This document shows, piece after piece, positions 2,117-39,942 of a DNA stretch of 64,000 nucleotides. Position 1 is the first letter of the stretch. The number at the start of each line of letters is the position of its first letter. The notes under the pieces are model-generated. The model saw only the letters and a program-made list of their open reading frames with translations, did not search any database and was not told the DNA's origin. Origin of the DNA: Escherichia phage vB_EcoM_IME392; the sequence record MH719082.1, one strand, 5' to 3'. The translations under genes and the position numbers were made by a program.

Positions 2117-2746
2117 TTATTTAGGTATCCATGAATACTTCAAATCCCATGGTCTCGGAGTACCATGGAAGCATACTACCGCAACTCCATTAGGCACCGA
2201 CCCGTTTCCGGTAGACCTATGACAGTAATGCTCCTGGTCAGGACCTACTACTGATACCTTGTAGGAACAGAATTTACCTGGGTATAGATCCTGTATGCGA
2301 GGTACTCCATTAAAGAATGGGCAGATAAACTCCTGATCACCACCTACAGAGTGATTAGCCATGAATCTATCTGGGCTAACTATCCAGGCATTCCAGATGC
2401 GCTCAGCTAAGATAGGCTCAACACGCATCACGCTACTGTTAACCATCCCAGTATGATACCAGTCACGAAGAATAGTTGATTCGTCGCAATTAAGCAAGAA
2501 CGTAATATCGTCGATAATTGCTGTGTCTAAGTCGAAGAACACGAACGGCTCCTGGATAGTGAATAACTCCATCTTACTCCACCAGCCAGGATAATCATAC
2601 TTCATAGGTATCCACTCAACTCCTTCGATAGGCTCTTTAGAGATACATGCATATCTCGTACCCTCTGGGAGTTGTCTACCTACCCATTTAACGTGATCTT
2701 CTGTGAAGTCCTTACCCTTACGAAATACCGTAACCACTAACGACAT
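2117..2746 (-). CDS. hypothetical protein (209 aa)
   Basis: ORF track; adjacent to glycosyltransferase genes. Confidence 0.55.
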   Translation of the reverse strand: MSLVVTVFRKGKDFTEDHVKWVGRQLPEGTRYACISKEPIEGVEWIPMKYDYPGWWSKMELFTIQEPFVFFDLDTAIIDDITFLLNCDESTILRDWYHTGMVNSSVMRVEPILAERIWNAWIVSPDRFMANHSVGGDQEFICPFFNGVPRIQDLYPGKFCSYKVSVVGPDQEHYCHRSTGNGSVPNGVAVVCFHGTPRPWDLKYSWIPK

Positions 2747-3705
2747 TTAGTCTTCTCCATATGTTTAAATCCCTGGATCATGTTCTTAGCCACGTTATCC
2801 CAGGTACAATCTTTAACCTTATCAGCAATCTTGGTTCTGTTAAGCTTAGGGAGTATTTCATCCCAGTTTATCTTAGCACCAACTATGTGATGCTCCACAG
2901 ATTCCAGACGATCCTTAGGAATTAGTCCTTCCTTAGTTACTACCAGAGCTCCGCACCGAGCCGCTTCCAGGACAGTAAGACCTAACGACTCTTTATGAGT
3001 AACTATGAAGATGTCGCAGCATCTGATTAATGCAGCGAACTCCTGACTGCTTACTCCTCCCCGACGATACTCCTCAACACTTATATTCTCCTCGTCGATA
3101 ACGCATAATCCATTATCGGTAAGAGTGTAAGATACGTGAGGAACCGGAATATGCTTAAGGTTCATCATCATGGTTAGGGAGTAATCGAAGTCCGACAGAT
3201 CAAATAGAGGATGGTCTACGAATATCCTAAGTATACCATCTGACATTTTCTCTGGGTGGAATAGCTTATCATCAGCTGCCCACCCTACCTGCCAGTTATT
3301 ATCCAGATGTCTTTTCAGACGACTCGGATTGTCTAAGTACTTATAGGTATCATCTCGAAGAGTGAAAGTTACATCTACCTGTTTACAGTCCAGCATCGAA
3401 CCATCATAGATATGGGTAACTAATCCCTTAAAGTTCTTTTTAAGGTACTCACCTATCTCGTGAGGGATCTGGGTGAATGGTCTTACTCCTACGTATAGGA
3501 TATGATCACACTCCTCTTCCCTAGCTATTTCTAATACCTGATCGGCATAAACATGTGGATTAATCGAATCGTGGTATTCTGGCCAGAATACCAACTCTAC
3601 TCCGTTATCCTCCAGAGCGCCTCGGAGATGATATTTCCACATGGTACTGAAGTTGGTTATCTGATGTGAACTACCAGGACAATTCGCTATATACAGTAAC
3701 TTCAT
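2737..3705 (-). CDS. GT-B fold glycosyltransferase (GT4-like)
   Basis: C-terminal ESLGLTVLEAARCGALVV matches the E-x7-E sugar-donor motif region of GT4 enzymes. Confidence 0.6.
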   Translation of the reverse strand: MKLLYIANCPGSSHQITNFSTMWKYHLRGALEDNGVELVFWPEYHDSINPHVYADQVLEIAREEECDHILYVGVRPFTQIPHEIGEYLKKNFKGLVTHIYDGSMLDCKQVDVTFTLRDDTYKYLDNPSRLKRHLDNNWQVGWAADDKLFHPEKMSDGILRIFVDHPLFDLSDFDYSLTMMMNLKHIPVPHVSYTLTDNGLCVIDEENISVEEYRRGGVSSQEFAALIRCCDIFIVTHKESLGLTVLEAARCGALVVTKEGLIPKDRLESVEHHIVGAKINWDEILPKLNRTKIADKVKDCTWDNVAKNMIQGFKHMEKTKCR

Positions 3706-4306
3706 TCACCCATTCCTCAACAGTAGTTTTACGAGTCCCACCAATCCCTGATAAGGACTGAATATTTATCTTCTCTGTAGCCGACTTAATTAAAATAGGA
3801 AGATGGCTAAGGTTATTTGGTACCCCACCAGATATTCTTGGTTCTGGACTACCATCTACCCCAACCAACAAGAGATCAGTGTAACCCATATGATAAGCTA
3901 ATCCGATCGCCCCATAAGCGCTATTCCCAGAACTGATTACATCAGGATCCTCAGATAACCCAGGAACTGCTCTCCATCTCCACAACCACCATAGGGGAGT
4001 GCCGTAGATAGGCTCCTCCCCACGATGTTCGTCCCGCTTAAGTAAGTGTGCTCCATAATCTGAATACAGATGCATATCTGCTTCGTCAACAGCTAGATAA
4101 TAACGAGTACCCATCTTAGGGTTTTGGATACGACATAGATTAGCTTGGCTAGGGTCTAGGGTAAAGAAGTAATTAGCTCTGGGTAGCCACTCTATCGCTC
4201 CGTTAACTGCAAATATCGGTATCTCATGTGGAGGAGTAAATCCTCTTGCCGATGGTCCATCTGCTACAATTATAGCAGGTCTTCTATACTTAGCCTCTCG
4301 AAGCAT
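3671..4306 (-). CDS. MptE/Maf-like (DUF115) or GT42-like transferase, paralog 1
   Basis: ADGPS motif and VGVDGS block resembling the GNGPS / GxDF motifs of sialyltransferase-like and Maf proteins; paralogous to next gene. Confidence 0.4.
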   Translation of the reverse strand: MLREAKYRRPAIIVADGPSARGFTPPHEIPIFAVNGAIEWLPRANYFFTLDPSQANLCRIQNPKMGTRYYLAVDEADMHLYSDYGAHLLKRDEHRGEEPIYGTPLWWLWRWRAVPGLSEDPDVISSGNSAYGAIGLAYHMGYTDLLLVGVDGSPEPRISGGVPNNLSHLPILIKSATEKINIQSLSGIGGTRKTTVEEWVNEVTVYSELSW

Positions 4307-4806
4307 GTTATTTTAGTCCTTCTGGTACAATTGATTACAGCAATACTATCTGGAAGGTATTTCTTGACCAAGTAATAGTCCTCCATCCATTTAGCAACTG
4401 TTTCCAGATCGGGATTAGTTAATTTACCAATATGATCCCCGTGGAAATGGCTGCCCTCAGAGATATCGCAGTCATATCCAAGAAGTACTATCTCTTTAGG
4501 AGCGAATACGCTGGCTAAGAAGATAGCTTGAGCACCTGAGTTATAGCAACTATTCAAGTAGAAGAACTGTTTCACATCTGGATGATTCTCTACCGGAAGA
4601 TGGCTATACTTAGAGCAAGTGCTTGGAATATTATCATAATTATACTCCCACCAGATAGGATCGAATCCATAAACTATGTTGGGAGGTCTGGATGAGAACA
4701 TGGCGTTGTTAGCGCTAATAACCAAGTCGGACTTACTAGCAAGTAGTAAATAATCCTCCTCGGTTAGAGAAGGACCGCTAGCTACACACATTATTCTCTT
4801 TATCAT
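4270..4806 (-). CDS. MptE/Maf-like (DUF115) or GT42-like transferase, paralog 2
   Basis: ASGPSLTEEDY and LLGYDCD...HFHGDH motifs; tandem paralog of 3671-4306. Confidence 0.4.
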   Translation of the reverse strand: MIKRIMCVASGPSLTEEDYLLLASKSDLVISANNAMFSSRPPNIVYGFDPIWWEYNYDNIPSTCSKYSHLPVENHPDVKQFFYLNSCYNSGAQAIFLASVFAPKEIVLLGYDCDISEGSHFHGDHIGKLTNPDLETVAKWMEDYYLVKKYLPDSIAVINCTRRTKITCFERLSIEDLL

Positions 4807-5788: not shown

Positions 5789-6106
5789 TTATTTTATTCT
5801 GGTGATTCTTCTGTAGTCTGTGTCTATATGCTCGCCTACTTCCAGCTTAAGGACATACCCATCCCAGAACCATGATGAGTCCATAGTGGAACCGGGAGCA
5901 CGAGTAGCCAGGAAATCTGGAGGCATGTTACCCTTACAGAAAATAGGCTTAGAGTTCTCGAAATCCAGATGAGTAATCTTGAACTCTTTCTCACGAATAC
6001 CCTGGCACCCTTCGCAGTTACACGGTCTCTCGAGTGGTCTGCAGAATACGCAATGACAGTTATTCATAAGATAGTTTTCTTTCTTATGAGGATGTACGTG
6101 ACTCAT
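5789..6106 (-). CDS. Cys-rich putative zinc-binding protein
   Basis: CHCVFC...CNCEGC cluster near N-terminus. Confidence 0.45.
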   Translation of the reverse strand: MSHVHPHKKENYLMNNCHCVFCRPLERPCNCEGCQGIREKEFKITHLDFENSKPIFCKGNMPPDFLATRAPGSTMDSSWFWDGYVLKLEVGEHIDTDYRRITRIK

Positions 6107-6522
6107 TTGCTTAAGTCCGTAATCTGGATGATGCGAGAAGCATTCTGGGCAAAGTCTTCTGCAGTACTAATCGGATAGCATACTGCCCAGGAGTGTACTT
6201 CACGAAGACGAGCTGTCAGCTTATCGATAACTTCAGCAGCACGATACATGAGATCATACTCTTCACTATCACAGTTTTCCTGACTGGCTATGGAGCGAAG
6301 AGCCATGGTGATGGGTACAGTACGGTTATGGAAGTGCGGGCTAGTTACAGTCAGCAGCTCTCCCTTCTCGTCCTTATCTCCCTCCAGATTAATGACATCT
6401 TCAATAGTCATCAGGAGGCTAGGCAGATCCAGTTGTTGGATATCTTCACGGATGATGCCTTTAGCTACCAGCATTTTAGTTACTGCGGCCGCCAGGATCT
6501 CATAAGCATTATCTTTGTTCAT
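6103..6522 (-). CDS. hypothetical protein (139 aa)
   Basis: Internal ATG at 6522 with GGAGA RBS. Confidence 0.45.
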   Translation of the reverse strand: MNKDNAYEILAAAVTKMLVAKGIIREDIQQLDLPSLLMTIEDVINLEGDKDEKGELLTVTSPHFHNRTVPITMALRSIASQENCDSEEYDLMYRAAEVIDKLTARLREVHSWAVCYPISTAEDFAQNASRIIQITDLSK

Positions 6523-6742
6523 CGTACTTCTCCAATGTATAGTTACCACTGCTGCTAGGATAGAGGTGAATAACTCCTTCAGGAAATCCCCTATGACCTC
6601 TTAATTCGTCCTCGGTCTGGGGAGCTTTAACGCAGTCTTTAGGGCTAACCCTATACAGCTCGCATAATCTGTGGAATGATATATGATGCATATCACCATC
6701 GGCACTTAATACAGGTCCTGGGTGAACAACATATTTAACCAT
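6509..6742 (-). CDS. hypothetical protein (77 aa)
   Basis: ATG at 6742 with GAGGAT RBS; ORF-track start at 6775 is GTG. Confidence 0.4.
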   Translation of the reverse strand: MVKYVVHPGPVLSADGDMHHISFHRLCELYRVSPKDCVKAPQTEDELRGHRGFPEGVIHLYPSSSGNYTLEKYDEQR

Positions 6743-6769
6743 TATTTTATCCTCAATGATACCGACATA

Positions 6770-6787
6770 GGACACCCGAAGATGTCC
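6770..6787 (-). terminator. UUCG-tetraloop hairpin (terminator-like)
   Basis: GGACAUC-UUCG-GGUGUCC downstream of ACP-like gene; weak U-tract. Confidence 0.4.
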
Positions 6788-6796
6788 TATAGCTTA

Positions 6797-7051
6797 TCAC
6801 TGGTTCAGAACTGCCACGATCTTTTCTGCCACCTGCTCCAGAGTATCGTCGCTATCATAGTCGAAGTCTGGGATACAGTCTTCCATACCCAGTTCATCTT
6901 CAACACGCATGATGATCTCCACTTCATCCAGAGAATCTGCACCTAACTGCTCACCAGTAGTAGTTTCAGTTACTTCCAGAATATCAACCATCATGATGTC
7001 AGCTACTGCAGATCGCAGCGCATCTTTAACCTGTTCCAAAGTTACAGACAT
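6797..7051 (-). CDS. acyl carrier protein-like
   Basis: QLGADSLDEVEIIMRVEDELG matches the ACP phosphopantetheine-attachment DSL motif and helix II; 84 aa, acidic. Confidence 0.7.
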   Translation of the reverse strand: MSVTLEQVKDALRSAVADIMMVDILEVTETTTGEQLGADSLDEVEIIMRVEDELGMEDCIPDFDYDSDDTLEQVAEKIVAVLNQ

Positions 7052-8994
7052 TATTCAGCTCCAATGATTTTACGGAATTGATCTTCGGTAACGATCTTGG
7101 TACCCTTAGCTTCGGCAGCCTTAAACTTACTGGACTGACTCGGCTTGTCGCATACCAGATATTCTGCGTCGCCGATACCGACTTCGACTACGCCGTATTT
7201 GATCCAGGAGTTAACCAGTTCGCTACGAGGCTTACTAAGCTTACCAGTTAAGCAGATCTTGAACTTGCCTTCCGGAAGCGGTTCCTCTACCTTAGAGGCT
7301 ACCCAGTTCAGAGGAAGATTCAGTACCTTCAGGATTACTTCCTGATTCTCTGCAATCTTCTTAGCTACGGAACCCATGCAGGCATCATAGATTGCCTTAC
7401 AGATTTCGTAGTCCTCGGTATTGACCTGGATACCATCATTAACCATGTCGTGGAAGCTATTGTTACGCAATACACGAATCATCTGGTCGCGAGTCACCGC
7501 AGTGGCAATACGCACTCCTGTTGCATAACCAAGACCATCCGTCCAGGTACAGGTCAGCATGTGGTCCATAGAGATAGGACGATCCTTCATATTGAAGAAG
7601 GACTGACGAGTAAGCTGGAGAGGGCCATCGTACATCTCTACCATACTGAACACTGGATGAGATGGGCCAGTCTCGATGATATCGTTCATCATGGCAACAT
7701 CATCCAGTTTAGCCTGCTCGGCAAACTTGTTGATATTCATGCCACCGAGACCCTTAGGAGCGAAGTCACGGATTATTGTACGAATAACCATCGGGTCTAA
7801 CTTAGTCTTGATGCGGATGTGCACACCATCCCAGAAGGTACGTACCCCATCGACAAACTCAGGAATTACCGCAGTGACGGGTTCCACGACTTCTTCGATA
7901 TGAGGAATTACCTCGTTACGGCGACTGATCTTGATCTTAGCGCCAGGTCCGATACCAGCACTCTTGATGTACTCAGCATTCCACCCGGATGCATAAGTTA
8001 CATTAACGCCACTCATGTCTACCGTCTCGAACTCAACAGTAGGCACGACTCGGCCGTAACCACTAACTACCCAGTGTACTTTAACCACGGTAGTGTCGTA
8101 GAATGCTGATTGGTACTTGATCTTATAGTGGACAGTATTCTTGCCCAGCATATTCTCATCCCAGTCAACATTCAGAGATCCCAGAACTACGCCATCCAGC
8201 AGGTAGTTGCAGATGGGATCTTCGCGGAACTTAGATGGCGGGTTAGCCACCAGCCAGGTATTGACATAACCAGCAGGAAGAACGAAGTACTTAACCACTT
8301 TGAAACCAGCCTTACTTAAGCATAGCAGCAGCTGGTTGTAGTCATCCATCCATGTCTCGTGATCCACATCCTCGTAGAATGCGGTTACAGAATATGCAAC
8401 CACATCCAGCAGTTCCATTAATGCAGGATCACTGTATTTAGCCAGAGCAATACCAGAGGCAGCATTACGCTGGTTACTGTACTCGTGGCTGATACGCTCG
8501 AACTTATCATCAGGAATAACGATTTCGCAGCGGACTTCTTTAATACCCTTAGGAACCTGGCGAGGAAACTCGGCACACTCCAGATTCTTCGTGATGTCCA
8601 GACCAGTGACGCCGTCGTGACGAGTTAAGCCACGGACGAAGTTACCGTCGTAGTCGTAATACAGAACTACCGAGATGCCGTCCAGTTTAGCCGAAGCGAC
8701 GAATCCCTTAACTTCTTCGTGACCATGGAGGAAGTTAAATCCCTCTTCCACAGCACCGATCTTAACCTGGTCAAGACCACCCACGAATGAACCATGTGGA
8801 CACTTAGCCAGATGTTCAGCAGCTTCGGTTACTCCCCAGCCTGGGGTGGTGAGGAGTGGGTTAGTAGGATCCAGCTCAGCTAATTTCTCGGTAAGAGCAT
8901 CGAACTCTTCGTCCGTAATAATGGGCTGGTCACCATTATAATATGCATTAGCCGCATTCTTAATTTGCTCTATCAGAGCAGCGACTTTTTCCAT
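7051..8994 (-). CDS. ligA: NAD-dependent DNA ligase
   Basis: N-terminal NAD-ligase block (YYNGDQPIITDEEFDAL), 647 aa, C-terminal BRCT-like segment. Confidence 0.85.
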   Translation of the reverse strand: MEKVAALIEQIKNAANAYYNGDQPIITDEEFDALTEKLAELDPTNPLLTTPGWGVTEAAEHLAKCPHGSFVGGLDQVKIGAVEEGFNFLHGHEEVKGFVASAKLDGISVVLYYDYDGNFVRGLTRHDGVTGLDITKNLECAEFPRQVPKGIKEVRCEIVIPDDKFERISHEYSNQRNAASGIALAKYSDPALMELLDVVAYSVTAFYEDVDHETWMDDYNQLLLCLSKAGFKVVKYFVLPAGYVNTWLVANPPSKFREDPICNYLLDGVVLGSLNVDWDENMLGKNTVHYKIKYQSAFYDTTVVKVHWVVSGYGRVVPTVEFETVDMSGVNVTYASGWNAEYIKSAGIGPGAKIKISRRNEVIPHIEEVVEPVTAVIPEFVDGVRTFWDGVHIRIKTKLDPMVIRTIIRDFAPKGLGGMNINKFAEQAKLDDVAMMNDIIETGPSHPVFSMVEMYDGPLQLTRQSFFNMKDRPISMDHMLTCTWTDGLGYATGVRIATAVTRDQMIRVLRNNSFHDMVNDGIQVNTEDYEICKAIYDACMGSVAKKIAENQEVILKVLNLPLNWVASKVEEPLPEGKFKICLTGKLSKPRSELVNSWIKYGVVEVGIGDAEYLVCDKPSQSSKFKAAEAKGTKIVTEDQFRKIIGAE

Positions 8995-9026
8995 CTTTGT
9001 TATTCCTTACGGTTGGATTGACACTT

Positions 9027-9056
9027 TAACAGCCTTTTAGCACCCTAAAAGAGCGG
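9027..9056 (-). promoter_or_regulatory. 31-bp conserved intergenic motif (putative phage-RNAP promoter)
   Basis: Abuts stop of upstream gene; about 33 nt upstream of ligase start at 8994; internal hairpin CTTTTAG-cacc-CTAAAAG. Confidence 0.5.
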
Positions 9057-9058
9057 AA

Positions 9059-9832
9059 TTAGCGATTCTCAGGTTCTACGTATTCCAGGCCCAGCAGCTG
9101 ATACAGTTCTTCCTCAGAGGAATTAGTATCCACACGCTCACCAGTCTCTACATTAAACAGGCCGTACTCATTAAGAGTCATGCCCATACGCTTAGCCACC
9201 GAACGCATGTGTACGTTATTCTGCATTGATCCTGTGGAGTGAAGTAAGCATGCATTCCAGGATTCTTCTGGACATATCTTGATATCGAACTCCAGACCAG
9301 TAGCGCAGTGTACGAAGCGGATCTTTTTATCCCCACCATAAACTTCTTCCATACCGGTAAGACGGAAGGCATGGCGAACCACTTCTGGAGGGTAAGTAGT
9401 GATCAGATCAACATCGCGAATCCACATCTTACCGCGACGTACTGAACCAGCAGTAGAGATCCGACCAGCAGATCCTTCAGCTAATCCTAACTTAGCCACT
9501 TCCATAAGGTAGGATTCTATGATATCCTTAAACTCGGTAGAGTAGGCAACACGCCCTTCTGGGACTTTAGACATAAGTTCAATGAACTTAGGAGTCATGG
9601 TACCATACTTGGCGAATGCTTCTAACTCGCTAGCAATCCCAGCACCGATCCATGGGATTGTAGTGAAGTTCATCTGGGAAGTTACACCATACGGGTAATC
9701 ATCCAGGGAACGGGCTGCACGATCATACGCCCGAACATGCCACATCGAGTCACCATGAGCTTTCTTAAGCTCGGCTATTTGGCGAAGGTGGCGAACAGCA
9801 TCAATACGGAAGGTCATCCTAACAGGCTCCAA
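9059..9832 (-). CDS. DNA polymerase beta-like (family X) nucleotidyltransferase
   Basis: GSVRRGKMWIRDVDLI matches Pol beta GSFRRG...DMDVLL catalytic motif. Confidence 0.6.
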   Translation of the reverse strand: MEPVRMTFRIDAVRHLRQIAELKKAHGDSMWHVRAYDRAARSLDDYPYGVTSQMNFTTIPWIGAGIASELEAFAKYGTMTPKFIELMSKVPEGRVAYSTEFKDIIESYLMEVAKLGLAEGSAGRISTAGSVRRGKMWIRDVDLITTYPPEVVRHAFRLTGMEEVYGGDKKIRFVHCATGLEFDIKICPEESWNACLLHSTGSMQNNVHMRSVAKRMGMTLNEYGLFNVETGERVDTNSSEEELYQLLGLEYVEPENR

Positions 9833-9982: not shown

Positions 9983-10354
9983 TTATCGTACCTGAACTTG
10001 CTCGAGACCCACAATTCCTTCCAGGCTAGGAAGGAGCATCGACATCAGCTTGATATAACGAGCTGTGTCGCCTTCGCTAAGATCAACACACCAGAGATTC
10101 GGAGAACCGAAGATGCCTGGCCACTTAGGAGTGCGAGGACCGTATGTAACCATCAGGCCAGTATTAGCTTTTGAGGCTTCGTGGATTTTAGCCTTCCACT
10201 CATCGTAGACTTCTGGGTTAGCTTTAGGATCCATCACGAAATAGGCGAGGCAGTGACTTCCCTCCAGATAAGTGGAGTTAGACAGCATTGTACGCTCACC
10301 AGGCTGGTAAGAATCAACACGACAAACGGTAACGTCTTTTTCTAAGTTAGTCAT
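9983..10354 (-). CDS. hypothetical protein
   Basis: ORF track; AAGGAA RBS. Confidence 0.5.
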   Translation of the reverse strand: MTNLEKDVTVCRVDSYQPGERTMLSNSTYLEGSHCLAYFVMDPKANPEVYDEWKAKIHEASKANTGLMVTYGPRTPKWPGIFGSPNLWCVDLSEGDTARYIKLMSMLLPSLEGIVGLEQVQVR

Positions 10355-10511: not shown

Positions 10512-10586
10512 TGGGGCCGCCGGAGGCCGCCCCACCCAAAAGAACGGGCTTTAAACCCGTTCATAATTCGTTTATTTGAAAAATAA
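10512..10586 (-). repeat. composite conserved intergenic element, family B, copy 1
   Basis: GC-rich hairpin + CACCCAAAAGAACGGGCTTTA + spacer + CGTTTATTTGAAAAATAA. Confidence 0.5.
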
Positions 10587-14813: not shown

Positions 14814-15148
14814 GCAGTCAGGAAGTTACTGGAGATCAGGAAATCATCCAGAGCTACTTCTGTATTCTTAGGAGTATTGTCTAACTCCCATTCACCTACT
14901 CCCAAACGGATCTTAGCCACGCCAGGAGCAATCTCTTCAATAGCTAGCTTAGAGCCACCGATTATCTGGAGGCGAAGAGCATTTACAGCTACTGCATACC
15001 CAGAGAACGCAGTCTCTACCTGGTGACGGAACTCCTGGTCGGAATTAACCTTAGCAGCGTAAGCAGCAGGTTCCATACCCAGTTGCTTAGCATACATCAG
15101 ATGAAACATGTCCAGGTTAATTTTGTTACCAGTAGTCTTCTTAGTCAT
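14804..15148 (-). CDS. hypothetical protein
   Basis: ORF track. Confidence 0.45.
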   Translation of the reverse strand: MTKKTTGNKINLDMFHLMYAKQLGMEPAAYAAKVNSDQEFRHQVETAFSGYAVAVNALRLQIIGGSKLAIEEIAPGVAKIRLGVGEWELDNTPKNTEVALDDFLISSNFLTAAV

Positions 15149-15665
15149 TCTTGATTTCCTCAGCAGTTACGCCAGTGATGTTTAAATACAGATCGGTAGG
15201 TAATTCTGGTAGGGTAGAGACATCCAGATTCTCTACGTCCTTAGCCAGAGTTATGTGAGGAGAGTATTCCGCACTGATCTCAGACGGCACCTCTCCAGAG
15301 GCACGGAGTCGATAGTTAAACGACTGTAGCAGATCGCTATCGAACGCCAGCACCAGGTAGTTAGCATTCTCACCAAAGATCTCATAGCGAGGATTCTTCA
15401 GATGAAGTTTGCTACCCACCAGATCAGCAATAGTTCCCTCATCCGGAGCACCAGTCCCCGGAGCATACATAAGGGTGCAGTGGTTATCGTGACCGGTATC
15501 GAAGTTAAGCTTATCATAATCAGCTACTTCGGAGATAACCTGCTTAAGATTATCTATCCAGGCATCAGAGTCTGGACAGAATTTTACCGAGGAGTAACCC
15601 TCGTCCACGGACTGTACAAGTCCTAACACTACTTCAGCTTTATTCATTTTTATCACCATGGCCAT
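15141..15665 (-). CDS. 2H phosphoesterase superfamily protein (LigT-like)
   Basis: Two H-x-T-x motifs (HCTLMY, HITLAK) with spacing typical of 2H phosphoesterases. Confidence 0.5.
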   Translation of the reverse strand: MAMVIKMNKAEVVLGLVQSVDEGYSSVKFCPDSDAWIDNLKQVISEVADYDKLNFDTGHDNHCTLMYAPGTGAPDEGTIADLVGSKLHLKNPRYEIFGENANYLVLAFDSDLLQSFNYRLRASGEVPSEISAEYSPHITLAKDVENLDVSTLPELPTDLYLNITGVTAEEIKND

Positions 15666-15952
15666 GGTAGTTTATTTTCGGGCTCCTGCCTATAGTAGGA
15701 GCATTTGATACCCAACGATTCCACAATACTTACAGGAATCTTATCAGTTACTTCAGAGTCTTGATAGATTGGTCCGAATACTGATACGTTTGGATCTTGC
15801 AACAGTTCAGATACTAATCCGGCTTCTTCATAAGTATCGAAGAATGCTGCGGTAGTATCCGGATTACAGCCGAGACCGGTCCATGAGGTGTAAAACTCGT
15901 TTACTCCACAGAGAGCACCGTGCTCCTTATGCACCACTAAAAATCCCAGCAT
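15653..15952 (-). CDS. hypothetical protein
   Basis: ORF track. Confidence 0.4.
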   Translation of the reverse strand: MLGFLVVHKEHGALCGVNEFYTSWTGLGCNPDTTAAFFDTYEEAGLVSELLQDPNVSVFGPIYQDSEVTDKIPVSIVESLGIKCSYYRQEPENKLPWPW

Positions 15953-16457
15953 CTGTGTATCCTTTAAGTTTATTTCTATACTTAACCATTTCCTGCTTAG
16001 CTATCTCATCGCAGAGATTATTTACTTTGTAGCGAGGATTATTGAACTTCTGATGACCTTTGACATGCTTAACCTTAATGGACTTAGGGTTAAGATCGCG
16101 AAGCATTTCCATATGCTTATCTATGAATTCCTTTAGTGCCCATTCGCAATCGCATTGGACGACTACTCTAACGCCATCGAACGCTGTCTTAGTCATGGCG
16201 AACCATAAGGTCTTCATGATCCCTTCTAGCTCTGCCCAGTTATTATCTGCAGCAGTAAATCCTCCGCGAGTTATATGAGCTCGCTGCTCACCAGGAAGAC
16301 GAATCCATCCTCCGAAGCCAGCAGCCTTACTCTTATGACAGTACGATGCATCTGAGAAGATTGTTATATACCCAGTAGGGTCCAGACCGCGTTCGGGAGT
16401 ACCCTCAAAGTGGATAACTCTACCAACATCTTTCTCACCGATAGCAGGTTTCTTCAT
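15927..16457 (-). CDS. RNase H (type 1-like)
   Basis: IFSDASY, WAELEGI and VKHVKGH...NNLCDEIAKQ blocks matching RNase HI catalytic DEDD arrangement. Confidence 0.7.
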   Translation of the reverse strand: MKKPAIGEKDVGRVIHFEGTPERGLDPTGYITIFSDASYCHKSKAAGFGGWIRLPGEQRAHITRGGFTAADNNWAELEGIMKTLWFAMTKTAFDGVRVVVQCDCEWALKEFIDKHMEMLRDLNPKSIKVKHVKGHQKFNNPRYKVNNLCDEIAKQEMVKYRNKLKGYTDAGIFSGA

Positions 16458-18025
16458 TACATATCCACCGTAGTTGCCTGGAATAAACCGACTACCATTT
16501 CATGGCTTGGTTTGACTACCGGACTATCGAAGTCGATAGAGCTATTGATGTTCTGGTTAACCATCATCAGGCTACGTACTTCCCAGCAAGCACGATCAGT
16601 CAGTACACGGTGAATTGCTGCGGTATCACCATCCACGTCCATGTTCTGACCACCCATAGCCATCGGAGGAACCTGAATCTCCTTACCCATGTGAGGTCTG
16701 ACCTTAAATCCCCATACTGAGTAACGGTGTAGGGATGGCGCACGGTTCATGAACACCGTAGCATTCTCACACAGTCTCCAGCATACTTCCAGAGCTACTC
16801 GGGACTTATTCTTGTACATACGCTGGACTTTATTGCTGATGTCGTACATGTTGTACCCTTCGTTAGTCGGGCCACCATATAAGTTCTCCAGCTCACCCAG
16901 GATGTCTGGCTGAAGTAATTCGTACATCATCTTGAACGGTACACCAAGAGTATCCAGCGGAAGATGAGGAGCCGAAGTAACTACAGAACGACCGGAGTAA
17001 TCAACGCGCTTACCTAACAGGTTACCACGGATTCGACCACCCTTACCTTTAAGGTTATTGATCATCGGCTTAATTAAATTACCTCGATAGTCCTTAGTAC
17101 CCTCCAGGATTAGTCCGTTAACCATCTTCTGCATTACAATAGATTCACGAGGAATCAGAGATAACAGCGCTTCGCTGGCCTCGGCAGTATCGCGAATACT
17201 TCTGATACGGATAGCATGGCGCAGGATTCGCAGGTAGAGTAAGTTAGTTGGATGATACGACATTACCCCATTACTGATACCAACATCACGATAGCTAGGA
17301 GGATTCACCAGCACCGTAGTGTTATAGAAGTCGCTGAACTCCGTATAACCACTATTGATTACTGTAGGATCTTCGCATTCTTCGATATAGGCTTTCATAT
17401 CAGCATGGTTAGCTACCAATGCCTGGATAAGGCTTAGGAGACCTAATTCAGATGACTCATGCTCGGACATACGGCGGATCTTGATCATTACTACTGCGAG
17501 GCGCTTCGTGCTATCCTGAACTGGGATAGTGTTAGAGTAGAACATCGCATACTTCTCACGATCTTCATATTCCGGAAGAGCAGCATTAGCCTCACGAACC
17601 CGCTCCCGATCATCGCCAACCATCTTAGCTGCCAAACCAGCTTCCTGGACTACGAAGCGGTATTTACCGATAAGGAACTGACCGAACTCTCGCTCTGGAA
17701 ACCCGAATAACGCAGCCATGCGTTTGATAGCTAATGGATTCACATAAGGAACGATCGTCTCGATGTGACCCATACGGCGGCGACGAGATTCACGATGCAT
17801 CGCTACCATACCGCATACATTACACGGAGGCGCTCCCATAACCATCTGGTTACCACACTCACACTTACCAGTTACCAGAGGTCCGAAGATACGCTGGCAG
17901 AATAACCCACCAGTGAATGGCTTAGGATCATGGAACTTAAGGTTATACATGCCCATACTGGTTACTTCACCACTGGACTCGGCACGGATTACAGCATCAG
18001 TTGCAATAGATAACTTTAATTTCAT
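16457..18025 (-). CDS. multisubunit RNA polymerase beta-prime subunit, N-terminal portion
   Basis: GLFCQRIFGP...CECG zinc motif, RRRRMGHIE, NLLGKRVDYSGRSVV, NRAPSLHR and NMDVDGD (variant of NADFDGD) in canonical order. Confidence 0.85.
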   Translation of the reverse strand: MKLKLSIATDAVIRAESSGEVTSMGMYNLKFHDPKPFTGGLFCQRIFGPLVTGKCECGNQMVMGAPPCNVCGMVAMHRESRRRRMGHIETIVPYVNPLAIKRMAALFGFPEREFGQFLIGKYRFVVQEAGLAAKMVGDDRERVREANAALPEYEDREKYAMFYSNTIPVQDSTKRLAVVMIKIRRMSEHESSELGLLSLIQALVANHADMKAYIEECEDPTVINSGYTEFSDFYNTTVLVNPPSYRDVGISNGVMSYHPTNLLYLRILRHAIRIRSIRDTAEASEALLSLIPRESIVMQKMVNGLILEGTKDYRGNLIKPMINNLKGKGGRIRGNLLGKRVDYSGRSVVTSAPHLPLDTLGVPFKMMYELLQPDILGELENLYGGPTNEGYNMYDISNKVQRMYKNKSRVALEVCWRLCENATVFMNRAPSLHRYSVWGFKVRPHMGKEIQVPPMAMGGQNMDVDGDTAAIHRVLTDRACWEVRSLMMVNQNINSSIDFDSPVVKPSHEMVVGLFQATTVDM

Positions 18026-19903: not shown

Positions 19904-21418
19904 TTATTTGTTATTCAGATTTAACCCAGCAATGATCATCTCGGAACGGGTTCCGAAGCTAACATCACCATTAAGCACCGCCGAGGTAAGACGCTGCTTA
20001 ACGTTACCGTGGCCGATAGACTTCAACCAGCTAGGATGCTTCGTAGGGATGGCATCAGCTTTAATCGCCAGTACCTCACCTTTATCACCCATGCTGCGAA
20101 CGCCGATTCGTCCGTTATTCATCTTAACTAGATCAGTACATCCACGAGCAATGATCTCATGGTGAATCGATGCGATACCGATACCGATGTCGTCGAAGAT
20201 ATGCTTAAGCTGGATTGATGCTAGCTCTGCACCCTTAATAGCCGAACCAGTTTCGTGGGCAAGATCCGTGATGCACTTATACTTAGACTCAGATACCTGA
20301 GCCACCGCAGTACCTCGGCCACCTACCGTCTTCAGGATATCAGCCAAGGTATTACTTACCGAGGTACCGAATTCCTTAAGCGTAGTCGAACCAGATGTAT
20401 GCTTACCACGAAGACCAGCCTGAGTAGATGGTTCAGATATATGCTGCGCCGACGCCGTTCCAATACCGAAGTTAATCGGGAAGAAGTTAGCTGGCTTAGC
20501 CGGATCCATACCGCAGCAATGCTGACATACCCCACCCTTAGTTGATTCACAGGTAATCGGGCTAAGAACTTTCACATTACCTTCTTCATCTGCTAACTGA
20601 TCAACATTCTCTTTAGTGACCATTACTCGGTCGCTAGTGAATCGATACAGTGCCGATTTCTTAGGTAAGGTAATCACTTCCTTAGTTCCACAGTCCTCTT
20701 CGACAATAGACAGCTCTCTGGAACAGTTAACTAGCTGGCGAGCGAACCACCCAGTCGCAGGTACCAGGAAGAAGTTACCAGCCAGACCCTTACGTGCAGG
20801 TCCGCAGGTATTGAAGTAGTTGATCGGAGATAATCCAGAGCTTAAGTTCTCCATGATCGGCATCGGCATGATCTTACCAGTCATACCCACCAGAAGACCC
20901 TTAGCTACCACCATCGAACGAACCTGGGGAGGAGATACACGAGCACCGGATACACCCATCGCATACAGAGGATTATGACGGTCCACTTCTTTGAACCAGC
21001 GATCAGTACATTCGTTGATCACCTTATCAGCAGCAGCCAGACGATCCTCATACCCCATCTTACCAAGCTCCTGGGTCATAGCTGGGAAGTCAATACCGAA
21101 GTCAAACTTAGTATCGTCATAGCACAGGCTAAGTCCAGACATAGTTGCTTTATGGAATCCGAACTGCTGCAACTTATGTAATCTACGCCCAGCTACTTCC
21201 GGAGTGTAGTTATTATTGATGTGAGAGACGATCTTCGCAGATTCCTTCTTATCGATTTCTTTCTCTGGAAGATAGCCACTGATTTCCCAAATAAACAGTC
21301 GACCGATAGTAGTTTCTTTAGGACCATCAGAGAAGTAAAAACGCACCGGAGTGGTGTAGGTTGCTTCTTTCATATCAATAAGACGGTGTAATTCATTCAA
21401 GGACTTTGATACGATCAT
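19904..21418 (-). CDS. multisubunit RNA polymerase beta-prime subunit, C-terminal portion
   Basis: GVSGARVSPPQVRSM...GPARKGLAGN, EEDCGT, GVCQHCCGMD, ASAQHISEPSTQ blocks colinear with bacterial beta-prime C-terminal half. Confidence 0.8.
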   Translation of the reverse strand: MIVSKSLNELHRLIDMKEATYTTPVRFYFSDGPKETTIGRLFIWEISGYLPEKEIDKKESAKIVSHINNNYTPEVAGRRLHKLQQFGFHKATMSGLSLCYDDTKFDFGIDFPAMTQELGKMGYEDRLAAADKVINECTDRWFKEVDRHNPLYAMGVSGARVSPPQVRSMVVAKGLLVGMTGKIMPMPIMENLSSGLSPINYFNTCGPARKGLAGNFFLVPATGWFARQLVNCSRELSIVEEDCGTKEVITLPKKSALYRFTSDRVMVTKENVDQLADEEGNVKVLSPITCESTKGGVCQHCCGMDPAKPANFFPINFGIGTASAQHISEPSTQAGLRGKHTSGSTTLKEFGTSVSNTLADILKTVGGRGTAVAQVSESKYKCITDLAHETGSAIKGAELASIQLKHIFDDIGIGIASIHHEIIARGCTDLVKMNNGRIGVRSMGDKGEVLAIKADAIPTKHPSWLKSIGHGNVKQRLTSAVLNGDVSFGTRSEMIIAGLNLNNK

Positions 21419-24671: not shown

Positions 24672-24941
24672 TTATCGAATTAGCCCATACTTCCATGCCA
24701 TTACATGCGCAGGTTCGTTATGAGCGAAGAATGCGGTACCCTTCTTGGTAGTAAGCACCAAACATGGCTTATTTCCCATCATATCAGCCATGCTAGCTAC
24801 CACAGTCTTCTCAGACCCAGGCTTAGCCGGATCAATGCCCATAGCTATTTTATGAGCAGTTGTCTTACCAGGACGTCTCGGATTAGATACCAAGACTTTA
24901 GGGGAGGCCTTTCGGCCACCCTTACGCTGCTTTCTCGCCAT
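24672..24941 (-). CDS. small basic protein
   Basis: ORF track; Lys/Arg-rich N-terminus. Confidence 0.4.
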   Translation of the reverse strand: MARKQRKGGRKASPKVLVSNPRRPGKTTAHKIAMGIDPAKPGSEKTVVASMADMMGNKPCLVLTTKKGTAFFAHNEPAHVMAWKYGLIR

Positions 24942-27900
24942 GTTTAGGCTCCAGAGTTATTTTAGCCTTAAGCTCGATATACTTACATCCCCAGCCTGTA
25001 CCGTCGGAACGAATACCGGATTTGGAGTTGAAGCTGTTAGCTATAGAGTTTAACTTCTCCTTCTCCTTAAGGATCTCTACGTATGGAGTCCACTGGCTAT
25101 ACTGATCGAGAGCTTCCAGTAGTTTTTCCAATGCAGACTCACGACCCTCAACGATCAGCCATCCGGAACCATCTTCGTTAACTCCATAGTCATCCAGACC
25201 CATCAAGGAACCTCCCCGAGCACCGAATTCGATATCAGTGCGCATAGGCATATCCCAGAGTTCACGAATAGCTCCCTCCATATTCTCACGAGTCTTCTGG
25301 AATACCTTGAACATCTCGTTGATTCCGGATGTGGTATCCAAGGAGTCGTGGACCATGATGTGAGTCTCGGCTTCCATATTGGACTGCTTAAAGTCCTCAT
25401 CCAGGAAATACATACCTGCACCAGCAACCATCGACGAAGTATTCTGGATAGGGTAGTTCACCGAAGTAGAGTTAACGTTGGTACCTTCCAGGTTGATACG
25501 GTTACCGAAGTAGCCATAAGCATACCCAGTCTCGAAGCCATTTTTCTTGGTAGCATCAATCCATGCCTTAAGACCGGTAAACTTACCGAATACCGTGTCC
25601 ATCAGATTCTGAGCACGCTCCATATCACCACCAGTAGCAACCATCGCTACCGATTCAAGGCTAGACTGGTATACTAATGCGAAGTTAATCGCCTTACCAC
25701 CCTTACGCTCAACATCAGTTACTTCAGGTTCAGACTTCTGGTATGCAATAGAGCTAACGAATCGGTGCATGTCACCACCAGATGAGAATACGTTCTTCAT
25801 ATCCGAGTCATCGGCGAACACGCTAACCATCACCAGCTCAGCCTGGCTAAAGTCCTGGTGATACCACAGACCACCCTCCGGCTTAGATACCCAGATGTTA
25901 CGCAGAGTACTGTCGCCAGGAACGTTATGAATACCTGCCTGCCAACGGGATGTAATCGCAGCCAACGAGTTAAAGTCCGGAGTCATGATGTAACAATCTT
26001 CACCATCCTGCAACTTCGGATTATCCCAGTCGTACTTACGAACTCGCAGTGGAGGTAGACCATCACGTAGCTTAGCTGCCCATACCGTCTGACGTCCTAC
26101 CTTACCATCAATGTACGTAGCAATCTGTTTGTAGTGACGCTTATACATCTTCAGGTCAACCATCATACGGAACGATGTATTCCAGGTAGACTCGTCGTCA
26201 GGATTAACTCCCAGCATCAACTGGTGAATAGCCAATTGAGCATCGAGAACATCCGCTTTAAACTTATTCGTGAATCGCTCTTCATAAGCTTCCAGACCGT
26301 CCTGGACGCACATGGCAATTAACTCTCGAACATGCTTAGACTCAGCAGTATCCCCGAATTGGATGATCCTGGTTAAGATCTCATCTACCGGAAACTCCCG
26401 GAAGAATTCCTTCTCCAGCTTCTCCGAATCCTTAGGCACGAATCCCTTAGAGATCGCTAGCAGGGTTTTATCCCAGTAGTCATGCACCTTAAGCTGGTCC
26501 ATTACAGACCATAGCATGGTACACATCTCGACTTCATCGGTAAGATAGGCTTTCCAGAACTTCTCCTTATTAGCCTTATCGTTACTGTTAGGGTTGAAGA
26601 ATCCAGACAGATCAGCAATCTTCCCAGCCAGAGTAGTAACCATCTTACGGCGCTCTTGGCCACCAGGAGTGTACCATACGTTCTCGTACGGCAACTCTCG
26701 ATAGATAAAGTCACGAGCTGTAAGCATCTGGTCAGGAGGTAACTTAAGGTTAGGAATTAGGCTAACCAAGTGCTCCGACATTTTGCTCATGCAATAGTCG
26801 TACTCTTTAGTCGCCTCTTCGTCATCCCAACGAATACCGTTAGCTTCAAAGATAGATGCCAGGTATGGATGTAACATATATACGTTATACCCATCCTTAT
26901 ACTTATCGTAAAACATCTCGTGGATGAACACACCGTACGCGGAGTCATAGCAGCAGTACTCCCCAAGAATCTCACGAGGAATCGCACCCCACTCATATGG
27001 GTAGAACGATGCCAAGTAAATAATCTCGGATTCTTCGAGCTCCTCCGATAGTTCGGCTATCTTATCCAGCATAAACTGGTTGAAGTTAACAGGAACACGA
27101 TTCTTAGCTGCCTTAGTCGGAGCCGCTTCCACGAGTTTCTCGTACTCAGCTTTAAGAGCTAGGTGATGCTCAATATTGAACTCACCGGACTGAATCTCGG
27201 CAATCTGTTCAGGAGTACAACGCTTCTTCATATCCTTGAAGATAGCTGCCCAACGATCCTTCCATTCGTGTACCGACCCTTCCCAGAAGTCTGCATGTAA
27301 ATAACGACGAGCAGCATCTTTCAACGAGCTTCGTTCGCCATGCATAGTCAGAGTTACAATCGCATCTATAAACTTACAGAATACGTCTAACCAGTGCCAC
27401 GTAGTCTTAATCTCGTACGGGCAGTTAAACGCCACGATCTGTTCCTGGAACTTAACCAGGAAGTCACGCAGGAATCCGAGCTGCTCCGGAGTCTCTTTAC
27501 CGGTAACATTATACCATACAGACTTGGCATCCTTATCACCAATCTTCTTAGCGATACTGAATCCAGTGATCCGGAAGTCTACCGAGAATAAATCAGCTGC
27601 GTTAGACTCATAGTCGAGGCCGAGATAGCCTTTGTACCCAGACCACATAATGTCGTTAAGGAACTCCTGGAGGCCGTTCCAGTCGACGAATTCCCACTCT
27701 ACATTATACTCGGATTCTTTCTGGCCGAATACCAGAAACTTAAAACGATCAATCCACGAATCCAGTAGGCCAGGATCAGAATCCAGATTACGTTCAACCT
27801 GGGCATGGTGCATGACTACAGCTAGCTTAAAGTTATACTCCGGTATGTTACCCAGAGGGAACTTCAGCAACTTATCCAGAGTCTTCTTATGCGTGTAACC

Positions 27901-28209: not shown

Positions 28210-28238
28210 GTTTAACTCCAAAAATAAACCTCCGCCAA

Positions 28239-33662: not shown

Positions 33663-33682
33663 TTAAGAATCTTTCCCACATT

Positions 33683-33713
33683 TTAACAGCCTTTCAAGAC
33701 CCTAAAAGAGCGG
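33683..33713 (-). promoter_or_regulatory. 31-bp conserved intergenic motif
   Basis: Consensus match about 20 nt upstream of kinase start at 33662. Confidence 0.5.
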
Positions 33714-33739
33714 ACTAAAAAGGCTGGTGTAAATGTGAA

Positions 33740-35790: not shown

Positions 35791-35817
35791 GTTTAATTTC
35801 TCCGTAGGCTGTCACAA

Positions 35818-35850
35818 TTTAACAGCCTTTTAGCTCATCAAAGAAGCGAG
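35818..35850 (-). promoter_or_regulatory. 31-bp conserved intergenic motif (variant)
   Basis: TTAACAGCCTTTTAG...AAAGAAGCGAG; upstream GGCTGT forms hairpin with ACAGCC. Confidence 0.45.
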
Positions 35851-36872: not shown

Positions 36873-36878
36873 ATTTAT

Positions 36879-37490: not shown

Positions 37491-37514
37491 TATTAATCCT
37501 CGCTACACAAAAAT

Positions 37515-37541
37515 GGGGTTAGGCCGTAGAGACCTAACCCC
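37515..37541 (-). terminator. intrinsic terminator (9-bp hairpin plus U-tract)
   Basis: GGGGUUAGG...CCUAACCCC followed by AUUUUUGUG. Confidence 0.55.
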
Positions 37542-37557
37542 GTACGCCTCTGACACC

Positions 37558-38959: not shown

Positions 38960-38962
38960 TGA

Positions 38963-39871: not shown

Positions 39872-39898
39872 TTTAATTCCTCAGTTAACTTGTACAAC

Positions 39899-39928: not shown

Positions 39929-39942
39929 AAATAATAGATATC

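What the first reader, a model, noticed from the sequence alone, without database searches (positions are those of the whole stretch)
6797..9832. Acyl carrier protein, NAD-dependent ligase and Pol X-like nucleotidyltransferase in a row
A Pol beta-like catalytic motif (GSVRRG...RDVDLI) next to an NAD-dependent ligase suggests a self-contained gap-filling and sealing repair module, unusual for phages, which more often carry ATP-dependent ligases. The adjacent ACP-like protein with an intact DSL phosphopantetheine site has no obvious partner (no synthase, acyltransferase or PPTase in the window); it may act as a carrier in a modification pathway or as an acidic DNA-mimic.
Basis: partly seen in the sequence, partly recalled or inferred. 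Interest (0 to 1): 0.5.

Follow-up and report, generated by a model that had tools for sequence, protein, structure and literature searches.

The report
Phage DNA-repair pair plus orphan carrier protein
The three genes are real, but the small repair polymerase and the NAD-type ligase are already annotated and published as this phage group's own uracil/abasic-site repair kit, and the acyl carrier protein next to them is a recently inserted orphan gene with no detectable link to repair.

Summary
On the minus strand lie a family-X DNA polymerase (9059..9817, 252 aa), a LigA-type ligase (7051..8994, 647 aa) and an acyl carrier protein (ACP) (6797..7051, 84 aa).

The window is the first 64 kb of Escherichia phage vB_EcoM_IME392. 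The ligase and polymerase are exactly GenBank AXY86062.1 and AXY86063.1, already named "putative DNA ligase" and "family X polymerase". A 2025 preprint lists these same genes, at the same coordinates, as partners of a replicative PolA fused to a uracil-DNA glycosylase (UDG). It shows gap filling, AP-site cleavage and sealing for the YerA41 homologues.

I confirmed three things:
- A Pol-beta fold with an intact catalytic Asp triad.
- The ligase KLDG motif and the NAD-binding domain Ia.
- A family-4 UDG fold at the PolA N-terminus.

New details:
- This PolX clade lacks the fingers subdomain.
- It has Glu where the Pol beta dRP-lyase lysine sits.
- The ligase has no zinc-finger cysteines.

The ACP is a genuine, selected gene (omega 0.155, Ser40 invariant). 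However, it sits on a roughly 680-bp cassette found only in the closest relatives. The next relative and all distant ones lack it. No PPTase or acyl-ACP enzyme was found. Its function stays unknown.

Overall: already known, with low interest.

The parts
9059..9817 (-). Family-X DNA polymerase (252 aa; identical to AXY86063.1). It has an 8-kDa-like N-terminal domain, palm and thumb, with no fingers/D subdomain. The catalytic residues are D135, D137 and D178. Glu64 sits where Pol beta K72 sits.
   Evidence: Pfam PF14716 and PF14791. Best PDB sequence hit is ttPolX 3au2, 3e-21. The AF2 model has pLDDT 92.5, and all top Foldseek hits are Pol beta, E about 1e-15. Alignments are, residue positions, and the exact GenBank match.
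7051..8994 (-). LigA-type (NAD-dependent) DNA ligase (647 aa; identical to AXY86062.1). It has domain Ia, an adenylation domain with K103 in KLDG, an OB fold, no zinc-finger cysteines, and a weak BRCT-like C-terminus.
   Evidence: Pfam. PHROG 3869 at 9e-88. E. coli LigA 2owo at 1e-16, with the alignment showing the domain Ia residues. Clade alignment. No Cys between residues 262 and 482. Exact GenBank match.
6797..7051 (-). Acyl carrier protein (84 aa, pI 4.05, Ser40 in GADSLD). Its ATG overlaps the ligase stop (TAATG), with a GGAG 9 nt upstream. It is the last gene before a hairpin.
   Evidence: PF00550. PHROG 5934. PDB ACP hits. Junction sequence. Omega 0.155 against L009. All variants keep DSL.
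6766..6791 (-). Eleven-pair hairpin with a UUCG loop directly after the ACP stop. It is one of six such minus-strand hairpins in the window and is the likely 3' end of the transcription unit.
   Evidence: Fold of -15.3 kcal/mol, z -2.66. Hairpin family listed.
9983..10354 (-). 123-aa protein of unknown function upstream of PolX. It is conserved with PolX and the ligase in all genus-level relatives, but was not found in the fetched PolX-flanking loci of Ab1-TPeters, the Vibrio phages or YerA41.
   Evidence: 58% identity in L013. phmmer against all loci. No Pfam hit.
10542..10562 (-). Terminator-like hairpin followed by a T-run. It marks the probable upstream boundary of the unit 123-aa gene / PolX / ligase / ACP.
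24922..28209 (-). SP15-like family-A replicative DNA polymerase. Its N-terminal ~200 residues (27592..28209) adopt a family-4 UDG fold. It is the proposed source of the abasic sites that PolX and the ligase repair.
   Evidence: PF00476. Best PDB sequences are phiLo 9qhs at 2e-39 and YerA41 9qlh. The N-terminal AF2 model has pLDDT 82.6. Foldseek top hits are family-4 UDGs 1l9g, 1ui0 and 4zbx plus UdgX, E about 2e-5, and phiLo 9qhs.
48136..48993 (-). FEN-type 5'-3' exonuclease. It is a possible route for removing the 5'-dRP flap (long-patch), given that PolX lacks the lyase lysine. This role is inferred.
   Evidence: PF02739 at 8.5e-13.

Best explanation
PolX and the LigA-type ligase are this phage's own gap-filling and nick-sealing enzymes.

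- The replicative PolA carries an N-terminal UDG-fold domain. It removes stray uracil from a genome in which thymine is replaced via 5-hmdU and then hypermodified.
- PolX fills the resulting one-nucleotide gap, and may also incise the abasic site, as reported for the YerA41 enzyme.
- The ligase, charged with NAD+, seals the nick.
- The two genes are co-transcribed with a conserved 123-aa gene.

The ACP is not part of this machinery. It sits on a ~680-bp accessory cassette inserted exactly at the ligase stop codon, and it borrows the ligase's transcription and translation. It is most likely phosphopantetheinylated by host AcpS and acts on host acyl/lipid metabolism, like other orphan phage ACPs.

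Shown here: the folds, the catalytic motifs, the gene order and the distribution.

Inferred: all activities, the hand-off from PolA, and the ACP's role.
For: Identity of the genes:
- The ligase and PolX are exact matches to AXY86062.1 and AXY86063.1 of phage IME392.
- Their coordinates are identical to Suppl. Table 2 of bioRxiv 10.1101/2025.03.26.645540.

Published model for the group:
- PolX and a ligase co-occur with UDG-fused PolA in SP15-like phages.
- YerA41 PolX cleaves AP/THF sites and fills gaps.
- The YerA41 ligase, pre-incubated with NAD+, seals the nick.
- PolX co-elutes with PolA.

Confirmed here:
- PolX has a Pol beta fold and keeps D135, D137 and D178. It is 38% identical to YerA41 PolX over palm and thumb.
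- The ligase belongs to the same clade as the YerA41, SP-15 and RP13 ligases. KLDG and the domain Ia motif are invariant.
- The PolA N-terminus has a UDG fold.
- Thymidine-modification genes are in the window: a TS-like gene and a 5-hmdU DNA kinase.
- The PolX-ligase order is kept in relatives down to 58% and 73-74% identity.
- An unrelated minimal PolX lies one gene from an ATP-dependent ligase in other viral contigs.
- RP13 has an ExoIII gene three genes upstream of its ligase.

ACP as a separate cassette:
- Homology to L018 stops at the ligase stop and resumes inside the PinA-like gene.
- L018 has no ACP, and none was found in the fetched loci of other relatives: ligase flanks of Ab1-TPeters, RP13, SP-15, YerA41 and L019-L022, and PolX flanks of Ab1-TPeters, the Vibrio phages and L014.
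- Other phage ACPs are likewise orphans, in unrelated contexts.
Against: - No activity has been measured for the IME392 proteins.
- The window PolX differs from the tested YerA41 enzyme outside palm and thumb. It lacks the fingers subdomain. It has Glu64 in place of the dRP-lyase lysine. Removal of the 5'-dRP is therefore unexplained.
- No ExoIII or EndoIV family gene was found in the window.
- The UDG motifs are diverged: GD for GE and HH for HP. Glycosylase activity here is therefore unproven.
- The overlapping stop/start, shared operon and purifying selection of the ACP are also what a true partner would show.
Confidence: 0.75

Rival explanations
1. PolX and the ligase serve ordinary lagging-strand maturation rather than uracil repair. 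Host Pol I and LigA may cope poorly with 5-hmdU or hypermodified DNA. The phage would then bring its own gap filler and its only ligase, working with its RNase H and FEN.
For: - The window encodes RNase H (15927..16457), FEN (48136..48993), a primase-like protein and helicases.
- No second ligase was seen in any Pfam scan.
- The ligase clade tracks the phage group with hypermodified thymidine.
Against: - Replicative ligation does not need a PolX, and most phages do without one: PolX matched only 9 of 50,697 phage records.
- The preprint shows AP-site processing by the YerA41 PolX and a complex with the UDG-bearing PolA.
- The two roles are not exclusive.
Confidence: 0.15
2. The ACP is a working partner of the repair pair. 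It could be an acidic subunit that regulates or mimics DNA for the ligase or PolX. It could also be the carrier on which part of the thymidine hypermodification is built.
For: - The ACP start overlaps the ligase stop and has its own Shine-Dalgarno sequence.
- It shares a hairpin-bounded unit with the repair genes.
- Omega is 0.155 and Ser40 is invariant.
- The protein is very acidic, with 23 D+E against 4 K+R.
- In phiRSL1 an ACP follows an RtcB ligase, and in phiXF1 one lies between gyrB and gyrA.
- SP-15 lists an 'acyl carrier protein reductase' among its candidate modification genes.
Against: - The ACP is absent at the same site in L018, which keeps PolX and the ligase.
- It is absent from the fetched loci of every more distant relative: ligase flanks of Ab1-TPeters, RP13, SP-15, YerA41 and L019-L022, and PolX flanks of Ab1-TPeters and the Vibrio phages.
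- No PPTase, adenylating enzyme, ketosynthase or acyltransferase was found in the window or in the non-structural rest of the sister genome EP_H11.
- A DNA mimic would not need the conserved DSL site and helix II.
- Other phage ACPs sit among tRNAs and hypothetical genes.
Confidence: 0.08
3. PolX is a catalytically altered relative used mainly for DNA-end or gap binding, or for AP-site cleavage, and not for synthesis.
For: - The fingers subdomain is missing and the lyase lysine is replaced.
- A Vibrio phage homologue has lost two of the three catalytic Asp residues.
- Two minimal PolX relatives have Asn at the third position.
Against: - The window protein and its nearest relatives keep all three Asp residues, GS-RR and the thumb motifs.
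- ASFV PolX works with palm and thumb only (established knowledge).
- YerA41 PolX fills gaps.
Confidence: 0.05

Closest known systems
SP15-like / RP13-like phage repair set: UDG-fused PolA + PolX + NAD-dependent ligase (bioRxiv 10.1101/2025.03.26.645540; YerA41 and phiLo studied)
   Same: - The same genome is listed there.
- It has the same PolA subfamily and a UDG fold at the N-terminus.
- It has the same ligase clade.
- The PolX palm and thumb are 38% identical to YerA41.
   Different: - Here PolX and the ligase are adjacent and co-oriented. In YerA41, Ab1-TPeters and SP-15 they are far apart.
- The N-terminal half of PolX is a recognisable 8-kDa domain here, whereas in YerA41 no family-X hit covered the N-terminal ~150 residues.
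- The ACP cassette is not mentioned in that work.
Pol beta / bacterial PolX (ttPolX 3au2) short-patch base excision repair
   Same: 8-kDa domain, palm with a DxD...D triad, and thumb, with Pol beta as the top fold match.
   Different: - There is no fingers/D subdomain.
- There is no PHP domain.
- Glu64 replaces the Schiff-base lysine.
African swine fever virus PolX + AP endonuclease + ligase
   Same: A virus-encoded minimal PolX used with a viral ligase for repair of its own genome (cited; otherwise established knowledge).
   Different: - ASFV PolX has no 8-kDa domain.
- ASFV has a dedicated AP endonuclease and an ATP-dependent ligase.
- No AP endonuclease family was found here.
Orphan phage acyl carrier proteins (PHROG 5934 / 4154)
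   Same: A small acidic PP-binding protein with a DSL serine and no cognate enzymes nearby. It is discussed only as a putative modulator of host lipid metabolism.
   Different: Here it is translationally coupled to a DNA ligase and is confined to a very narrow clade.

Membership tests
DNA polymerase family X | Palm with three catalytic aspartates (Pol beta D190, D192, D256) | tested here: met
   D135 and D137 are invariant in a 16-sequence alignment. D178 sits in EFDIK.
DNA polymerase family X | Pol beta thumb domain and overall Pol beta fold | tested here: met
   PF14791 at 1e-20. All top 50 Foldseek hits are Pol beta, E about 1e-15, prob 1.0.
DNA polymerase family X | 8-kDa N-terminal domain | tested here: met
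   PF14716 at 7e-13, residues 13-78.
DNA polymerase family X | dRP-lyase nucleophile lysine (Pol beta K72) | tested here: not met
   The HMMER alignment to ttPolX puts Glu64 opposite that lysine. The same Glu is present in the whole phage clade.
DNA polymerase family X | Fingers / D subdomain with a second helix-hairpin-helix | tested here: not met
   There is a gap of about 60-70 columns relative to the longer PolX proteins. There was no PF14520, PF10391 or PF14792 hit.
DNA polymerase family X | Template-directed gap filling | not testable with these tools
   Shown only for the YerA41 homologue.
NAD-dependent DNA ligase (LigA) | Adenylation domain with KxDG lysine | tested here: met
   PF01653 at 6.7e-20. 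K103 in KLDG is invariant in the clade.
NAD-dependent DNA ligase (LigA) | Domain Ia with NMN-binding residues (E. coli Y22, D32, Y35, D36) | tested here: met
   PF22745 at 3.5e-7. The alignment to 2owo gives Y18, D28, F31 and D32. The E. coli residue numbers are from my own knowledge.
NAD-dependent DNA ligase (LigA) | OB-fold domain | tested here: met
   PF03120 at 3.5e-13.
NAD-dependent DNA ligase (LigA) | Cys4 zinc finger | tested here: not met
   There is no cysteine between residues 262 and 482. Only P0033 in the clade keeps the CxxC...C motif.
NAD-dependent DNA ligase (LigA) | HhH and BRCT C-terminal domains | tested here: inconclusive
   BRCT scored E 0.008, 16.8 bits, below the cut-off of 21.3, and there was no HhH family hit. 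The C-terminal TGKLS...SSK block is conserved.
NAD-dependent DNA ligase (LigA) | Use of NAD+ as AMP donor | not testable with these tools
   The YerA41 homologue was assayed after NAD+ pre-incubation.
Acyl carrier protein (PF00550) | PP-binding domain above the curated cut-off | tested here: met
   32.4 bits against 20.8.
Acyl carrier protein (PF00550) | DSL serine and acidic helix II | tested here: met
   GADSLDEVEIIMRVEDE aligns to the ACP motif GADSLDTVELIM. The serine is kept in all six variants.
Acyl carrier protein (PF00550) | Cognate PPTase or acyl-ACP enzymes encoded alongside | tested here: not met
   There were no such Pfam families among the 95 selected window ORFs, nor in 25 non-structural ORFs of the sister genome EP_H11.
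Acyl carrier protein (PF00550) | Phosphopantetheinylation in vivo | not testable with these tools
   Host AcpS is the assumed enzyme. This is an inference.
SP15-like phage replication-coupled uracil repair | SP15-like PolA with an N-terminal UDG domain | tested here: met
   Best PDB sequences are phiLo and YerA41 DNAP. The N-terminal model matches family-4 UDGs and phiLo. Sequence-only searches failed.
SP15-like phage replication-coupled uracil repair | Catalytically competent UDG motifs | tested here: inconclusive
   Motif A reads IIGDE...PPF and motif B reads MHHA, where more distant homologues have GEG...PF and NHP.
SP15-like phage replication-coupled uracil repair | PolX and ligase in the same genome | tested here: met

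The most novel reading that the evidence does not exclude
The ACP cassette is not a bystander. Holo-ACP may carry a building block for this genus's thymidine hypermodification. The nearby cluster includes a 5-hmdU DNA kinase, glycosyltransferase-like proteins, a PIG-L deacetylase, a methyltransferase and a BCCT transporter. Alternatively, the ACP may bind and tune the ligase. Either would be the first nucleic-acid role for a phage ACP.
Probability: 0.07. Interest if true: 0.65.

Novelty: already known. Interest (0 to 1): 0.25.

Why it matters
The polymerase-ligase pair illustrates how phages with heavily modified thymidine keep uracil out of their DNA without relying on host repair. This has already been proposed, and partly demonstrated, for this phage group, and these very genes are catalogued.

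The small additions here could guide biochemistry on the E. coli phage, which is easier to work with than YerA41:
- A PolX form without fingers and without the lyase lysine.
- A ligase without zinc-finger cysteines.
- The tight gene linkage in this genus.

The ACP adds one more case to the unexplained class of orphan phage ACPs. It comes with a natural control: a close relative that lacks the cassette.

Tried and rejected
- IMG/VR scans for relatives of PolX (alignment A1) and of the ligase found nothing.
- The word-based protein search for the ACP returned only 77-92% identical proteins, so no distant context could be drawn from it.
- Sequence-only detection of the UDG domain failed with phmmer against PDB, Pfam at E up to 5 and a 7-sequence profile against PDB. 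Only the structure model with Foldseek worked.
- An exhaustive representative search with the PolA N-terminus found only six other PolA fusions and no free-standing UDG.
- A search for an ACP partner (PPTase, AMP-binding, ketosynthase, acyltransferase, SDR) in the window and in EP_H11 was negative.
- A weak second HHH_8 hit (E 8.7e-4) appeared among the 52 pooled ORFs. I could not assign it to an ORF, and phmmer with the PolX N-terminus found no second copy.
- The 123-aa gene upstream of PolX was tested as a possible conserved partner. It is confined to the genus.
- I considered CCA-adding and antibiotic nucleotidyltransferases for PolX and rejected them on fold and sequence.
- MH719082 is not in the annotated phage collection. 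I therefore established identity through exact protein look-up.
Full report
**What is there.**
The region holds three co-oriented minus-strand genes.
- **ACP.** ORF 6797..7051 (84 aa) matches the phosphopantetheine-attachment family PF00550 above its curated cut-off. It also matches PHROG 5934, 'acyl carrier protein', and many solved ACPs. Its serine is Ser40 in GADSLD. The protein is strongly acidic, with pI 4.05.
- **Ligase.** ORF 7051..8994 (647 aa) has LigA domain Ia, the adenylation domain and the OB fold. It carries KLDG at 103-106. It aligns to E. coli LigA over residues 12-370 with the domain Ia residues in place.
- **PolX.** ORF 9059..9832 most likely starts at the ATG at 9817, giving 252 aa. 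It has the 8-kDa HHH_8 domain and the Pol beta thumb. Its best solved relative is Thermus PolX, followed by Pol lambda, mu and beta.

**Where the window comes from.**
- The region is 93% identical to Escherichia phage EP_H11.
- An exact-sequence look-up shows the ligase is AXY86062.1, 'putative DNA ligase'. The polymerase is AXY86063.1, 'putative DNA-directed DNA polymerase family X'. Both belong to Escherichia phage vB_EcoM_IME392, a 116,460-bp record.
- Supplementary Table 2 of bioRxiv 10.1101/2025.03.26.645540 lists IME392 genes at 7051-8994, 9059-9817 and 24922-28209. These are the window's own coordinates. The window is therefore the first 64 kb of that genome.
- The exact ACP sequence is on record only as a hypothetical protein of EP_H11, WBU87677.1.

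**What is already published.**
[quoted passage not shown] It makes four relevant points.
- All members except phiLo also encode a PolX and a ligase.
- YerA41 PolX cleaves abasic and THF sites to leave a 3'-OH, and it fills gaps.
- The YerA41 ligase then seals the nick. It was pre-incubated with NAD+.
- PolX co-elutes with PolA.

A second paper places IME392 and EP_H11 in the same 'RP13-like' group of phages with hypermodified thymidine. Neither paper mentions an ACP.

**My checks of that model in this window.**
- **PolA.** The 1099-aa PolA (24922..28221 as an ORF) is closest in the PDB to the phiLo and YerA41 polymerases.
- **UDG domain.** The N-terminal 200 residues of PolA gave no sequence hit to any solved structure or Pfam family. 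A model built on seven homologues (pLDDT 82.6) matches family-4 uracil-DNA glycosylases, UdgX and the phiLo polymerase. The motifs are diverged, with GD for GE and HH for HP, so activity is not established.
- **PolX fold.** The PolX model (pLDDT 92.5) matches only Pol beta structures at the top.
- **PolX catalytic residues.** D135, D137 and D178 are present. The protein is 38% identical to YerA41 PolX over palm and thumb only.
- **Thymidine-modification genes.** The window holds a thymidylate-synthase-like gene and a clear 5-hmdU DNA kinase.

**Differences from textbook enzymes.**
- *PolX.* The clade (window, P0006, P0007, Ab1-TPeters and Vibrio phage homologues) lacks the fingers/D subdomain. 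It also has Glu where Pol beta K72 and the Thermus PolX lysine lie. A canonical dRP-lyase step is therefore not expected.
- *AP incision and dRP removal.* No ExoIII or EndoIV family was found in the window. The phage FEN or host enzymes could remove the dRP. This is an inference.
- *Ligase.* The ligase has no cysteine between residues 262 and 482, so it has no Cys4 zinc finger. The same is true of the YerA41, SP-15 and RP13 ligases.
- *Rarity.* LigA-type ligases are not rare in phages: 741 records matched. PolX is rare: 9 of 50,697 records matched, and no PHROG family matched.

**Gene linkage.**
- The PolX-ligase order is kept in metagenomic relatives with 58% (PolX) and 73-74% (ligase) identity.
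- In Ab1-TPeters, YerA41 and SP-15 the two genes lie far apart.
- RP13 has an ExoIII gene near its ligase.
- An unrelated 159-aa PolX lies one gene from an ATP-dependent ligase in three other viral contigs.
- A terminator-like site at 10562..10542 and a UUCG-loop hairpin at 6766-6791 bracket the 123-aa gene, PolX, the ligase and the ACP.

**The ACP.**
- *It is a real, selected gene.* Six variants all keep DSL. Against the 77%-identical copy in L009, omega is 0.155, compared with 0.06 for its neighbours.
- *It is coupled to the ligase.* Its ATG overlaps the ligase stop (TAATG), and it has its own GGAG.
- *It has a narrow distribution.*
  - Only four clusters at 77-92% identity exist among 5.8 billion proteins.
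  - Contig L018 keeps the 123-aa gene, PolX and the ligase, yet goes straight from the ligase stop into the PinA-like gene.
  - The DNA alignment breaks exactly at the ligase stop and resumes about 765 bp later in the window, against about 83 bp in L018.
  - No ACP-like ORF exists in the ligase-flanking loci fetched for Ab1-TPeters, RP13, SP-15, YerA41 or the other metagenomic relatives, nor in the PolX-flanking loci fetched for Ab1-TPeters, the Vibrio phages and L014.
- *It shows a mosaic history.* The ACP DNA is 100% identical to EP_H11, while the ligase and PolX have dS of 0.25 and 0.60.
- *It has no partner enzymes.* No PPTase, adenylating enzyme, ketosynthase or acyltransferase family appears in the window. 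None appears in 25 non-structural ORFs of EP_H11 covering the rest of the genome.
- *Other phage ACPs are orphans too.* One follows RtcB in phiRSL1, one lies between gyrB and gyrA in phiXF1, and others sit among tRNAs or hypothetical genes. The literature offers only predictions of an effect on host lipid metabolism.

**Verdict.**
- The repair-module reading is right but already annotated and published for this genome.
- The 'unusual ligase type' argument is weak.
- The ACP is a genus-restricted accessory cassette of unknown function. Nothing found here ties it to repair.

Noticed in passing
window 37577..38959 (-), within 31858..40713: A 460-aa BCCT-family (betaine/carnitine/choline) transporter (PF02028, 1e-92) sits inside the putative thymidine-modification cluster. 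That cluster holds a TS-like gene, an AAA_28 kinase, a 5-hmdU DNA kinase, a weak GT-like protein, a PIG-L deacetylase and a SAM methyltransferase. Among phage records only EP_H11 has a close copy. The other hits are distant (<31% identity), mostly unannotated fragments or metagenome-derived records, and were not examined further.
   Followed up: partly
window 33740..34711 (-): There is a clear 5-hmdU DNA kinase (PF18723, 3e-35). The preprint on this phage group states that this kinase 'could not be detected' in these genomes.
   Followed up: no
window 5765-5784, 6766-6791, 13667-13684, 40791-40812, 45350-45371, 49014-49039 (-): Six minus-strand hairpins with 7-11 paired bases share a UUCG tetraloop. 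Three are followed by a run of five T, one by a T-rich tail and two, including the one after the ACP, by no T-run. They look like a phage-specific terminator or RNA-end family.
   Followed up: partly
window 6797..7051 versus EP_H11 (L001 15001..15255): The ACP gene is 100% identical at the DNA level between the two phages. The adjacent ligase and PolX have dS of 0.25 and 0.60. This points to a recent exchange of this small segment.
   Followed up: no
L010 7974..8228: In one metagenomic relative the ACP reading frame is broken near its 5' end, and only a 75-aa product from an internal ATG is called. This could be decay or an assembly error.
   Followed up: no
L004 4965..5762 (Vibrio phage 150E35-1): The PolX homologue annotated 'lyase domain protein' has lost two of the three catalytic aspartates (GLD for DVD, and N for D). 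It also lacks the lyase lysine.
   Followed up: no
window 2117..4806 (-): A GT1-like glycosyltransferase is followed by two proteins with weak MptE/DUF115-like matches. They may act in sugar decoration of DNA or of a surface structure.
   Followed up: no
window 15141..15665 and 6103..6549 (-): The window holds an Acb1-like (anti-CBASS) protein and a PinA-like (Lon inhibitor) protein. The PinA-like gene lies just downstream of the ACP cassette.
   Followed up: no
window 16457..18025, 19904..21418, 45374..48139 (-): The RNA polymerase beta' is split into two genes. A single 921-aa protein joins an Mre11-type phosphoesterase to a Rad50/SMC ATPase with a zinc hook.
   Followed up: no
L019 2233..2961: In a relative with a 43%-identical ligase, the gene directly after the ligase is a radical-SAM protein rather than an ACP. 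The slot after the ligase appears to be a variable insertion point.
   Followed up: no
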